Positions 12,051 through 13,809 of a DNA stretch of 64,000 nucleotides are shown piece by piece. Made by a program: the position numbers and the translations under genes. Source of the DNA: Alphaproteobacteria bacterium (GTDB lineage: Bacteria > Pseudomonadota > Alphaproteobacteria > JAPOUT01 > G958296285); contig CBDBUR010000002.1 of the NCBI GenBank assembly GCA_965212115.1, positions 689,731 to 753,730 of the forward strand, read 5' to 3'. The notes beneath the pieces were generated by a model, which saw only the letters and a program-made list of their open reading frames with translations, searched no databases and was not told the origin of the DNA. Numbering within the stretch: position 1 is the first letter of the stretch; each line of letters begins with the position of its first letter.

Positions 12051-13481
12051 TTATATAAACTCGTGGCCCGGCGGCTCAATCACAATATGCGATGAATGAC
12101 GAAACTCCGTGATCTTAGGCGGCGCGCTGCGCTTCAACGGCACAAGCACATCCAGATCCAAACGCAGCAGTGATTTCTTGCCGCCGATGGGCAGAGCCTT
12201 TGGCCCGTCTTCACTCATCTGCTCAAACACAGAAGGCTCCATGAGCTTGCTTACCCCAACACGAACATCGCCATTCTCAAGACGCGTTATCGTATGCGAG
12301 AAATAATTATTTCCGTTAAAACCATCGATAGGGCCAACTTGATCCTGATCGATCTCTGGGTGCGGCGCTAACTCCCCGCTGTGCTGCAACTTATAAAGTC
12401 CCGCCAAAGCCTGCTGCGATAACAACGAACTCACGCGGCGCGCCTGATTGGCATCACCTCCGCAAAACTGCGTGAGATGATCCGAAATCTCCTTGCGGTT
12501 CTGAAAATTCCAGCGAAGCTCATGATTCGTGACCACGCGATGGCCATCATCAAACCTTTTTGGCATGCGAGCAAAATCTGTAATATAAATCTCAGACACA
12601 TTGAGCTCCTCGCTGCTCGCATCACCCCGCCTCAGATGACAGATGCCCCCTTCTTTCCCCGCTTTTTTATTCGGCACCCCCTCTTCAAACTCATGCGCCA
12701 GCTTCGTGAAATCTTCCTCGAAGCGTGCTGCAATCGAAGCCGGCACAGCCCCCGAAGATGAAGAAATATGCGGCACGAGCTCCTCGCCAAAGCGCGCCAA
12801 GATATTGCGCGTTTTTTTCGAAATGCGCTCACCGCGCGGCGGCTCGGGAAAATCCTCCACAAGAGAACGCCGCAAACTAACCTCCGCTAGAATTAACCGA
12901 TCCAAAACCTCCAAATGGCGCAAAGTGAAGCCAAACTCTTTTCGGACACCCAAAGACAACCCATCTTGCTCGGAAGCCAATTTTAATCCCGCGCGTAATT
13001 CTTTCATATCTCGTCTATTCAATTTTTTATAGAGTTTGAGAACATCTTTATCTGTCATTTTCGTAAGCCCTTCGTGAAAGCTTACATAGAGGTCGCCGCC
13101 ATATTTAGTCACTTCCTCATGTTGAACATCAGGATTGATCGCACTGTCATGGGCGGTGCGCAAAAAAGTTTCCCGTGTGCCGCTGCGAAAAACCTCTAAA
13201 AGCTGCGCGCCATCTTGTTGGCCATCTTTGCCCGTCAACCCAGTCGATTCAAGATTAGATCGCTGCGCAGACTCCCCCAACAAACGCGCTTGGCGTGAAA
13301 AAAGCGAACGCGGCGAAAAGCGCCGACCCAAAGGTTGGCTATTTACATTATGCACCCGATCCGATCGGGCAACCTCCACACTGCGCACCTCGCCAGAGCG
13401 CGCCTTCAGCCGCGTGATCGCCTGTCGCAAAAAACTCAGCACGTTTTTAGAGAAGGCCGCCTTATTTGAAACTTTCGACAT
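12051..13481 (-). CDS. Hypothetical 476-490 aa protein, candidate T3SS effector (convergent with CesT-like chaperone gene)
   Basis: Long ORF with a Ser-rich N-terminus (MSKVSNKAAFSKNVLSFLRQ...). No recognisable catalytic motif. A longer start at 13523 is also possible. Confidence 0.5.
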   Translation of the reverse strand: MSKVSNKAAFSKNVLSFLRQAITRLKARSGEVRSVEVARSDRVHNVNSQPLGRRFSPRSLFSRQARLLGESAQRSNLESTGLTGKDGQQDGAQLLEVFRSGTRETFLRTAHDSAINPDVQHEEVTKYGGDLYVSFHEGLTKMTDKDVLKLYKKLNRRDMKELRAGLKLASEQDGLSLGVRKEFGFTLRHLEVLDRLILAEVSLRRSLVEDFPEPPRGERISKKTRNILARFGEELVPHISSSSGAVPASIAARFEEDFTKLAHEFEEGVPNKKAGKEGGICHLRRGDASSEELNVSEIYITDFARMPKRFDDGHRVVTNHELRWNFQNRKEISDHLTQFCGGDANQARRVSSLLSQQALAGLYKLQHSGELAPHPEIDQDQVGPIDGFNGNNYFSHTITRLENGDVRVGVSKLMEPSVFEQMSEDGPKALPIGGKKSLLRLDLDVLVPLKRSAPPKITEFRHSSHIVIEPPGHEFI

Positions 13482-13809
13482 CAATGATGACCTCGCCCGC
13501 TGCAATGTCAGCGACGAGATCAAATTGCATCAAGTGCAACAAAGCCGCTAAAGATTTATTCTTCGTCTGAAGCACAACATGAATGTTTTTCCTCCGCGCG
13601 CGCGCGATCAGATCAAGCAAAAACCCGACACCGCTAAAATCCAAAAGCGCCAGAGGCTCTAAATCCAAAATGAGCCGCGCACCCTCTTCAAGCTGAACAA
13701 CATTGACAATATGTTGCTGCATCCCATCCGCGTTATGACTGTCGATGCGCCGCGGCAAAGACCAGACACGCTCATCGATAAACTCTTTTTCTGTCAATGC
13801 CCTGTTCAT
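13462..13809 (-). CDS. STAS-domain protein (anti-sigma-factor antagonist, SpoIIAA/RsbV/BtrV-like)
   Basis: 115 aa. ...HIVNVVQLEEGARLILDLEPLALLDFSGVGFLLDLIARARRKNIHVVLQ... is a typical STAS/anti-anti-sigma core. Confidence 0.65.
   Translation of the reverse strand: MNRALTEKEFIDERVWSLPRRIDSHNADGMQQHIVNVVQLEEGARLILDLEPLALLDFSGVGFLLDLIARARRKNIHVVLQTKNKSLAALLHLMQFDLVADIAAGEVIIDVESFK

What the first reader, a model, noticed from the sequence alone, without database searches (positions are those of the whole stretch)
13462..13809. STAS-domain anti-sigma antagonist embedded in the T3SS gene cluster
A 115-aa SpoIIAA/RsbV-like protein is encoded between the secretin gene and a candidate effector. Partner-switching modules are known to gate T3SS secretion in Bordetella (BtrU/V/W) and are associated with T3SS in Chlamydia. 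Its presence suggests this system is controlled by a similar phosphorylation switch whose kinase and phosphatase partners lie outside the window or are unrecognised.
Basis: partly seen in the sequence, partly recalled or inferred. Interest (0 to 1): 0.5.

Follow-up and report, generated by a model that had tools for sequence, protein, structure and literature searches.

The report
Serine-less STAS protein in T3SS operon
A small STAS-domain gene really does sit right after the type III secretion secretin gene, and it is conserved there across a group of uncultured small-genome Alphaproteobacteria, but it lacks the serine that such proteins are switched by, so it probably works by plain protein binding and not as the phosphorylation switch first proposed.

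Summary
ORF 13462-13809 (-) encodes a 115-aa STAS protein (Pfam PF01740, 45 bits, E 1e-11). Its AlphaFold model is closest to TM1442, SpoIIAA and RsbV. Its ATG overlaps the sctC stop codon (ATGA). The gene lies inside a complete injectisome cluster (about 1-28 kb).

The proposed phosphorylation switch is not supported. The residue aligned with the phospho-serine of canonical antagonists (D-S-x-G) is Phe58. Across 18 orthologues that column reads F/H/P/A, with T or S in only three. No GHKL kinase or PP2C/SpoIIE phosphatase was found in the roughly 65 ORFs scanned in the window. None was found in 16 related loci either.

What is there is a lineage-specific, fast-evolving STAS clade. Only two close representatives turned up among 1.84 billion proteins. 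The gene sits at sctJ-K-L-N-O-C-STAS in every related locus with SctC identity of 33-76%. These loci come from alphaproteobacterial MAGs with chromosome-scale contigs of 1.6-1.9 Mb. The gene is under purifying selection (dN/dS 0.18-0.32, similar to sctO).

Best reading: a T3SS-dedicated STAS adaptor that does not depend on phosphorylation. Its level is set by co-expression with the basal-body operon. Its partner is unknown. It is a new variant of a known kind, of moderate interest.

The parts
13462..13809 (-). STAS-domain gene (115 aa), the subject of the finding
   Evidence: Pfam PF01740 at 45.1 bits and PF13466 at 38.2 bits. AF2 model with pLDDT 77. Foldseek top hits TM1442, SpoIIAA and RsbV.
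13630..13641 (-). Codons for D57-F58-S59-G60, the loop and N-cap of helix alpha2 that holds the phospho-serine in canonical antagonists. Here the acceptor position is Phe.
   Evidence: Codons GAT TTT AGC GGT read. HMM alignment to TM1442 'YMDSAGLG'. Column comparison in alignment A3. Helix alpha2 starts at residue 58 in the model.
13806..13809 (-). ATGA overlap of the sctC stop codon and the STAS start codon, suggesting translational coupling
   Evidence: Sequence, ORF coordinates. Related loci show overlaps of 4-8 nt or gaps of 7-18 nt.
13806..15449 (-). sctC secretin (547 aa), immediately upstream in the same operon
   Evidence: TIGR02516 at 335.7 bits, plus Pfam Secretin and Secretin_N.
15453..15923 (-). 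sctO stalk protein (156 aa)
   Evidence: Pfam YscO PF07321 at 48.4 bits.
15932..17488 (-). sctN ATPase. The ORF is 518 aa, but the true start is probably Met70 at 17281, because orthologues are 449-473 aa.
   Evidence: Pfam ATP-synt_ab and T3SS_ATPase_C. Orthologue lengths.
17268..17954 (-). sctL stator (228 aa)
   Evidence: Pfam T3SS_SCTL PF06635.
17951..18679 (-). sctK-like gene (ORF 242 aa; orthologues 206-223 aa)
   Evidence: Weak Pfam hits to T3SS_LEE_assoc and YscK.
18579..19439 (-). sctJ inner-membrane ring lipoprotein (286 aa), the first recognisable gene of the sctJ-K-L-N-O-C-STAS run
   Evidence: Pfam YscJ_FliF.
12051..13523 (-). Conserved ORF of unknown family downstream of the STAS gene. 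The ORF is 490 aa. The likely start is Met15 at 13481 (476 aa), which overlaps the STAS 3' end by 20 nt. It is a candidate T3SS substrate.
   Evidence: No Pfam, NCBIfam or PDB match. Orthologues of 467-482 aa follow the STAS gene in L001-L004, with a tandem paralogue in L004 (alignment A5). It is absent after the STAS gene in L005, L006, L013 and L015.

Best explanation
The gene encodes a STAS-domain protein dedicated to the type III secretion system. It has lost, or never had, the canonical phospho-acceptor. It is made together with the basal-body and ATPase proteins, as the gene directly after sctC in an sctJ-K-L-N-O-C-STAS run and translationally coupled to sctC. Shown: the STAS fold; Phe instead of Ser at the N-cap of helix alpha2; strict positional conservation in one clade of uncultured Alphaproteobacteria with chromosome-scale contigs of 1.6-1.9 Mb; purifying selection; and no kinase or phosphatase gene nearby. 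Inferred: it acts as a constitutive protein-binding adaptor through the alpha2 face, the surface that SpoIIAA uses for SpoIIAB and MlaB uses for the ATPase MlaF. On this reading its activity is set by its abundance, that is by expression of the injectisome operon, and not by a kinase/phosphatase pair. The partner is unknown. Candidates are a cytosolic injectisome component (the ATPase complex, sorting platform or export gate) or a secreted regulator or substrate.
For: STAS fold. For the divergent subclade. Acceptor column F/H/P/A in 15 of 18 orthologues, against S in all five canonical comparators and in TM1442. Only Gly60 of the loop is invariant. Below the NCBIfam cutoff for anti-sigma antagonists (34.4 against 53.45 bits). 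Exactly one STAS gene per related locus, always right after sctC, across SctC identity of 33-76%. Absent from three more distant T3SS loci. ATGA overlap with sctC. dN/dS of 0.18-0.32, comparable with sctO (0.14-0.34). No HATPase_c, SpoIIE or PP2C hit in about 65 window ORFs or in the annotated related loci; six-frame check negative. Precedents for phosphorylation-independent use of the same STAS surface: the MlaB alpha2/Thr52 interface with MlaF (PMC7367683) and unphosphorylated HsbA binding the exported anti-sigma factor FlgM (PMC5085249).
Against: No binding partner was identified and no complex could be modelled, so the mechanism is inference. Three orthologues have T or S at the acceptor column (P0109, P0112, P0113), so phosphorylation in some lineages is not excluded. 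The rest of each genome could not be searched for kinases, phosphatases or anti-sigma factors. [quoted passage not shown]
Confidence: 0.55

Rival explanations
1. Canonical phosphorylation-driven partner switch, like BtrU/V/W or RsbU/V/W. A kinase/anti-sigma factor and a PP2C phosphatase encoded elsewhere in the genome would phosphorylate and dephosphorylate this STAS protein to gate secretion.
For: The nearest solved structures are phospho-regulated antagonists (TM1442, SpoIIAA, RsbV). Bordetella provides a precedent for a STAS switch controlling T3SS (PMC7498569; PMC8256260). Ser59 is adjacent to the canonical position in the window protein.
Against: The acceptor position is Phe58 here and F/H/P/A in 15 of 18 orthologues. 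The +1 position is also not conserved (S,T,S,V,S,D,D,S,A...). No kinase or phosphatase lies in the window or in the related loci, whereas BtrV, BtrW and BtrU are encoded together in one btr locus. The protein scores below the TIGR00377 cutoff.
Confidence: 0.07
2. Constitutive anti-anti-sigma factor. The Ser-less STAS protein binds an anti-sigma or anti-activator protein encoded elsewhere, possibly one that is itself secreted, in the way unphosphorylated HsbA binds FlgM. Once the basal-body operon is expressed, transcription of later T3SS or effector genes would be released, giving a feed-forward link that needs no kinase.
For: The fold is closest to anti-sigma antagonists. The gene is co-transcribed and translationally coupled with apparatus genes. 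No transcriptional regulator is recognisable within the cluster. HsbA-FlgM precedent. Non-phosphorylatable SpoIIAA Ser-to-Ala variants bind SpoIIAB constitutively (my own knowledge of the SpoIIAA literature, not checked here).
Against: No sigma or anti-sigma gene is present in the window or in any related locus. A bulky Phe at the site that faces the kinase ATP pocket argues against an RsbW-type partner specifically. This rival overlaps the best explanation and differs only in the nature of the partner.
Confidence: 0.15
3. Dedicated chaperone or escort for the 476-aa protein encoded immediately downstream.
For: The two genes are adjacent or overlapping in the window and in L001-L004.
Against: The STAS gene persists at the same position in L005, L006, L013/L014 and L015/L016, where no orthologue of the 476-aa gene follows it. 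STAS is not a known T3SS chaperone fold. CesT-type and TPR-type chaperones are already present in the cluster.
Confidence: 0.1
4. Non-functional relic of an ancestral partner-switch module that is decaying after loss of its kinase and phosphatase.
For: Fast sequence divergence: 58% identity where SctC is 76%, and 21-31% where SctC is 33-50%. The acceptor residue is lost. Pfam hits are sub-threshold in the distant subclades.
Against: The reading frame is intact at the same position in all ten loci that carry the gene, from at least seven distinct genomes, all on small chromosomes. dN/dS is 0.18-0.32, clearly below 1 and similar to the bona fide component sctO. Core hydrophobic and loop-Gly positions are conserved, and the proteins give foldable models.
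Confidence: 0.05

Closest known systems
BtrV of the Bordetella BtrU/BtrW/BtrV partner-switching module
   Same: Both are single-domain STAS proteins genetically linked to an injectisome locus. BtrV is required for T3SS function and none of the three Btr proteins acts as a negative regulator (PMC7498569; PMC8256260).
   Different: BtrV has the conserved Ser55 and is phosphorylated by BtrW. Its kinase (BtrW) and SpoIIE-family phosphatase (BtrU) are encoded in the same btr locus, which is a regulatory locus adjacent to bsc and not inside the apparatus operon. Here the acceptor is Phe, no kinase or phosphatase is nearby, and the gene is translationally coupled to sctC.
SpoIIAA / RsbV / TM1442 anti-sigma factor antagonists
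   Same: These give the best fold and sequence-profile matches: TM1442 E 2.8e-11 by profile and Foldseek TM of 0.66-0.69. Size, topology and the loop Gly are the same.
   Different: The protein scores below the TIGR00377 and TIGR02886 cutoffs. Phe stands in place of the phospho-Ser. No cognate GHKL kinase/anti-sigma factor or PP2C phosphatase gene was found.
MlaB, the STAS subunit of the MlaFEDB ABC transporter
   Same: MlaB is a STAS-only protein that works as a stable accessory subunit of a transport machine's ATPase through its alpha2 face, with no demonstrated phosphorylation (PMC7367683). It gave the second-best PDB profile hits (E 8e-6).
   Different: MlaB keeps Thr52 at the acceptor position and is encoded with mlaFED. 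The NF033618 score here is 18 bits against a cutoff of 90. Structural similarity is lower than to SpoIIAA-type proteins (TMq 0.55).
HsbA (PA3347) of Pseudomonas aeruginosa
   Same: HsbA is a STAS protein encoded next to flagellar (type III export) genes. Its unphosphorylated form sequesters FlgM, an anti-sigma factor (PMC5085249) that is itself exported by the flagellar type III apparatus (my own knowledge). This is a model for a STAS protein binding an exported regulator.
   Different: HsbA is phospho-regulated on Ser56 by HsbR. It belongs to the flagellar system, not an injectisome.
Chlamydia RsbV1/RsbV2-RsbW-RsbU
   Same: STAS antagonists in an obligate intracellular bacterium that has a T3SS (PMC8256260).
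   Different: These proteins are phospho-regulated by RsbW and RsbU and are proposed to control sigma-66 availability (PMC8256260). To my knowledge they are not encoded within T3SS apparatus operons.

Membership tests
STAS domain superfamily (Pfam PF01740 / PF13466) | Profile score above the curated gathering cutoff | tested here: met
   PF01740 at 45.1 bits against 22.6; PF13466 at 38.2 against 29.2.
STAS domain superfamily (Pfam PF01740 / PF13466) | Four- or five-stranded beta-sheet with flanking helices in the SpoIIAA-like fold | tested here: met
   AF2 model with pLDDT 77 and elements E13-17, H24-38, E45-49, H58-73, E77-82, H85-93, E101-104. Foldseek hits to STAS structures with TM 0.65-0.69.
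Anti-sigma factor antagonist (SpoIIAA/RsbV type; NCBIfam TIGR00377, TIGR02886) | Score above the NCBIfam curated cutoff | tested here: not met
   TIGR00377 at 34.4 bits against 53.45; TIGR02886 at 25.7 against 114.75.
Anti-sigma factor antagonist (SpoIIAA/RsbV type; NCBIfam TIGR00377, TIGR02886) | Conserved phosphorylatable Ser/Thr at the N-terminus of helix alpha2 (D-S-x-G) | tested here: not met
   The window protein has D57-F58-S59-G60. The column is F/H/P/A in 15 of 18 orthologues and S in all canonical comparators and in TM1442.
Anti-sigma factor antagonist (SpoIIAA/RsbV type; NCBIfam TIGR00377, TIGR02886) | Cognate GHKL serine kinase/anti-sigma factor gene (HATPase_c_2), usually adjacent | tested here: not met
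   None among about 65 window ORFs or in the Pfam tables of L001-L006 and L013-L016. The rest of the genome could not be tested.
Anti-sigma factor antagonist (SpoIIAA/RsbV type; NCBIfam TIGR00377, TIGR02886) | PP2C/SpoIIE-family input phosphatase somewhere in the genome | not testable with these tools
   It is absent from the 64-kb window and the related loci, but the source contig (1.10 Mb) and the related chromosomes could not be scanned.
Bordetella-type BtrU/W/V T3SS partner switch | STAS protein with Ser55 phosphorylated by a BtrW-like kinase, with kinase and SpoIIE phosphatase encoded in the same regulatory locus next to the T3SS genes | tested here: not met
   No Ser at the equivalent position. 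No kinase or phosphatase gene in the cluster. Btr locus composition taken from PMC7498569.
Bordetella-type BtrU/W/V T3SS partner switch | Required for type III secretion | not testable with these tools
   This needs genetics or reconstitution, and the organisms are uncultured MAGs.
MlaB-type STAS accessory subunit | NCBIfam NF033618 score above cutoff, and genomic linkage to mlaFED | tested here: not met
   18.1 bits against a cutoff of 90. No mla genes are adjacent.

The most novel reading that the evidence does not exclude
The Ser-less STAS protein is a previously unrecognised, lineage-specific accessory component of the injectisome itself. On this reading it would bind the SctN/L/O ATPase complex, the sorting platform or the export gate, much as MlaB binds MlaF. 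That would make it a STAS domain recruited as a phosphorylation-independent structural or regulatory subunit of a type III secretion machine in host-associated Alphaproteobacteria.
Probability: 0.3. Interest if true: 0.65.

Novelty: new variant of a known kind. Interest (0 to 1): 0.42.

Why it matters
STAS proteins are known to control type III secretion only in Bordetella, through a kinase/phosphatase switch whose output is still unknown. This gene belongs to a separate clade in which the STAS protein is hard-wired into the apparatus operon and cannot be phosphorylated at the canonical site. If it binds an injectisome component or a secreted regulator directly, it would point to what STAS proteins actually touch in T3SS control. 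It would also add a new accessory factor to an otherwise well-catalogued machine. In addition, it marks a poorly known group of small-genome Alphaproteobacteria that carry a full injectisome and an IpgD/SopB-like effector, which suggests they are probably symbionts or pathogens of eukaryotes.

Tried and rejected
- The word-indexed protein search with the single STAS sequence returned only the query itself. The exhaustive phmmer search was needed.
- The first genome-contig scan, using the single SctC sequence, found nothing. A second scan with an alignment gave six loci.
- The window's own genome is not in the gene-position index, for either the STAS protein or PGI. I therefore could not walk beyond the window or scan its genome for kinases or phosphatases.
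I rebuilt it from database proteins as A4 and A6.
- Promoter and terminator scans around the operon were at chance level: 8 found against 6.8 expected, and 14 against 12.9. They say nothing about operon boundaries.
- I tested whether the 476-490 aa downstream protein is a divergent SctW gatekeeper or a known effector. It gave no Pfam, NCBIfam or PDB-sequence match.
- I rejected the idea that the STAS protein is a pilotin. That was a reading of the sequence, which shows no signal peptide or lipobox; no predictor was run. STAS is also a cytoplasmic fold.
- Literature searches for a STAS protein in a T3SS cluster other than BtrV, or for this alphaproteobacterial T3SS, found nothing specific.
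Full report
**1. Observation**

The ORF at 13462-13809 on the minus strand encodes 115 aa. It matches Pfam STAS (PF01740, 45.1 bits, E 9.6e-12, cutoff 22.6) and STAS_2 (PF13466, 38.2 bits). An AlphaFold2 model built from a 24-sequence alignment has mean pLDDT 77 and the STAS topology: strands at 13-17, 45-49, 77-82 and 101-104, and helices at 24-38, 58-73 and 85-93. Its best Foldseek matches among solved structures are TM1442 (E 4e-5, TM 0.69), SpoIIAA in complex with SpoIIAB (1th8_B), and RsbV (6m36). MlaB and SLC26 STAS domains rank lower.

The start codon overlaps the stop codon of the upstream secretin gene as ATGA (sequence). The upstream gene is sctC (TIGR02516, 336 bits). 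The downstream ORF (12051-13523) has no recognisable family.

**2. Context**

Window positions of about 1-28,000 hold a complete injectisome cluster. It contains:
- sctD, an HpaP-like sctP, sctV, sctQ, sctR, sctS, sctT and sctU;
- a CesT-like chaperone, a needle protein, a SycD-like TPR chaperone and a second CesT chaperone;
- on the minus strand, sctJ, sctK, sctL, sctN, sctO, sctC, the STAS gene and the 476-490 aa ORF;
- an SseC-like translocator, a further TPR chaperone and an 893-aa IpgD/SopB-like protein.

The rest of the window is housekeeping: glcDEF-like genes, rplU-rpmA-obg-proB-proA-nadD, EgtB/EgtD-like genes, etfBA, ileS, lspA, pgi and others.

Among the roughly 65 ORFs scanned there is no HATPase_c-type kinase, no SpoIIE/PP2C phosphatase, no sigma factor and no anti-sigma factor.

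**3. Relatives**

The STAS protein is very isolated in sequence space. An exhaustive phmmer search of 1.84 billion representative proteins gave only two hits below E 1e-10 (59-60% identity). The next hits are generic STAS proteins at E of about 1e-6.

SctC homologues led to related loci. In every related locus that could be inspected, a small gene follows sctC directly, in the order sctJ-K-L-N-O-C-STAS:
- SctC 70-76% identical: L001, L002
- SctC 50%: L003
- SctC 44%: L004
- SctC about 33-35%: L005, L006, L013/L014, L015/L016

In the three closest loci the small gene carries a Pfam STAS hit on record. In the more distant loci the hit is sub-threshold (E 1.5e-4 to 9e-3). A model of one distant orthologue was built from an alignment of that subclade only. 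It again finds anti-sigma antagonists first: 4hyl, TM1081 and SpoIIAA, with TM 0.57-0.60 (model pLDDT 66, so modest confidence).

A profile of the clade finds exactly one copy per locus, always after sctC. It finds none in three more distant T3SS loci from Rhodospirillaceae, Opitutales and Methylacidiphilaceae MAGs.

The named records are 'MAG: Alphaproteobacteria bacterium' chromosomes of 1.61, 1.69 and 1.73 Mb. This suggests small-genome, probably host-associated bacteria.

**4. The phospho-site**

In canonical antagonists the phosphorylated serine follows an Asp at the N-terminus of helix alpha2 (D-S-x-G). The profile alignment to TM1442 pairs the clade's 'LLDFSG' with 'YMDSAGLG'. In a 23-sequence alignment, the five canonical STAS proteins retrieved by phmmer all have D-S-x-G. 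The 18 T3SS-linked proteins have F,F,F,F,F,H,H,A,P,P,P,T,P,P,T,S,H,A at that column.

In the window protein this is D57-F58-S59-G60 (codons GAT TTT AGC GGT at 13641-13630). Helix alpha2 of the model begins at residue 58. The neighbouring +1 position (Ser59 here) is not conserved either. Only Gly60 is invariant.

The protein also scores below the NCBIfam cutoffs for anti-sigma antagonists. The literature describes the Ser/Thr at this position as broadly conserved among STAS proteins, and as lying at the centre of the partner interface even in MlaB (PMC7367683). It is Ser55 in BtrV and Ser56 in SypA (PMC8256260). The clade is therefore atypical precisely at the regulatory residue.

**5. Is it a real, functional gene?**

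Nei-Gojobori estimates were taken on pairs where dS is not saturated:

| Gene | dN/dS |
|---|---|
| STAS | 0.18-0.32 |
| sctO | 0.14-0.34 |
| sctC | 0.14-0.17 |
| sctN | 0.08-0.10 |

The gene is under purifying selection and evolves about as fast as the stalk protein. Together with the invariant position, and tight spacing to sctC (overlaps of 4-8 nt or gaps of 7-18 nt), this argues against a decaying relic.

**6. Mechanism**

The following is shown:
- it is a STAS fold;
- it belongs to the T3SS operon;
- it cannot be phosphorylated at the canonical site in most lineages;
- no kinase or phosphatase is encoded nearby, whereas in Bordetella BtrV, BtrW and BtrU are encoded together in one btr locus (PMC7498569).

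The rest is inferred. The protein probably acts as a constitutive binding module through its alpha2 face, and its activity follows its abundance, which is tied to expression of the basal-body/ATPase operon.

Two classes of partner are plausible. The first is a cytosolic injectisome component, by analogy with MlaB binding the ATPase MlaF. The second is a regulator, possibly a secreted one, by analogy with unphosphorylated HsbA binding FlgM or with the Bordetella circuit.

A role limited to escorting the 476-aa downstream protein is unlikely, because four loci keep the STAS gene without that neighbour.

The canonical phospho-switch remains formally possible only if kinases act at a non-canonical residue, or in the three lineages with T or S. 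I give it about 0.07.

**7. Comparison with known systems**

By fold and profile it is a member of the STAS superfamily. It fails the defining tests for a SpoIIAA/RsbV-type antagonist (curated score, phospho-Ser, adjacent kinase), for a BtrV-type module and for MlaB. Functionally it may resemble BtrV in being T3SS-linked. It may resemble MlaB or HsbA in binding without phosphorylation.

I found no description of such a gene in the searchable literature.

**8. Verdict**

The gene is a new variant of a known kind: a Ser-less STAS protein conserved within the T3SS operon in a clade of uncultured Alphaproteobacteria. Interest is moderate (0.42). It offers a clean, testable handle on how STAS proteins interface with type III secretion, but the partner and function remain unknown and the organisms are uncultured.

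Noticed in passing
window 12051-13523 (-); L001 10026-11456, L002 9983-11416, L003 10425-11873, L004 10144-11547 and 11600-13093: A conserved 467-490 aa protein family with no Pfam, NCBIfam or PDB-sequence match follows the STAS gene in the closer relatives. It is tandemly duplicated in L004 (20-29% identity to the window copy). Its N-terminus is rich in Ser, Lys and Arg. It is a likely T3SS substrate or effector of a new family. The true start in the window is probably Met15 (13481), not the TTG at 13523.
   Followed up: partly
window 25205-27886 (-): An 893-aa protein with an IpgD/SopB-type phosphoinositide phosphatase domain (PF05925, E 4e-38) lies at the edge of the T3SS cluster. This implies manipulation of a eukaryotic host cell.
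   Followed up: no
L003 8001-10109 (P0006, 702 aa); also P0007 and P0012: In some relatives sctO and sctC are called as a single ORF carrying both YscO and Secretin domains. This is either a real SctO-SctC fusion or a lost stop codon or annotation artefact.
   Followed up: no
window 1-28000: The cluster has no recognisable SctW gatekeeper (HrpJ/TyeA), no pilotin and no transcriptional regulator (AraC, OmpR or ECF type). About a dozen ORFs (for example 168-599, 3536-4159, 22154-22537, 23039-23809, 24393-25181) have no family match.
   Followed up: partly
window 36876-39187 (+): An EgtB-like gene (DinB_2 plus FGE-sulfatase) and an EgtD-like gene (Methyltransf_33) lie side by side. This is an ergothioneine biosynthesis pair, which is unusual in a genome that appears small and host-associated.
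   Followed up: no
window 15932-17488 (-) and 17951-18679 (-): The mechanical ORFs for sctN (518 aa) and sctK (242 aa) are longer than their orthologues (449-473 aa and 206-223 aa). The true starts are probably internal (sctN Met70 at 17281), giving the 14-nt sctL/sctN overlap that is also seen in L002.
   Followed up: partly
L007, L008, L009 (OZ243043.1, OZ242373.1, OY282459.1): The relatives carrying this T3SS-STAS arrangement are alphaproteobacterial MAG chromosomes of 1.6-1.7 Mb (three named NCBI records) and unnamed ENA contigs of up to 1.94 Mb. The window's own contig is 1.10 Mb. This looks like a coherent but undescribed lineage of probable eukaryote-associated bacteria.
   Followed up: partly
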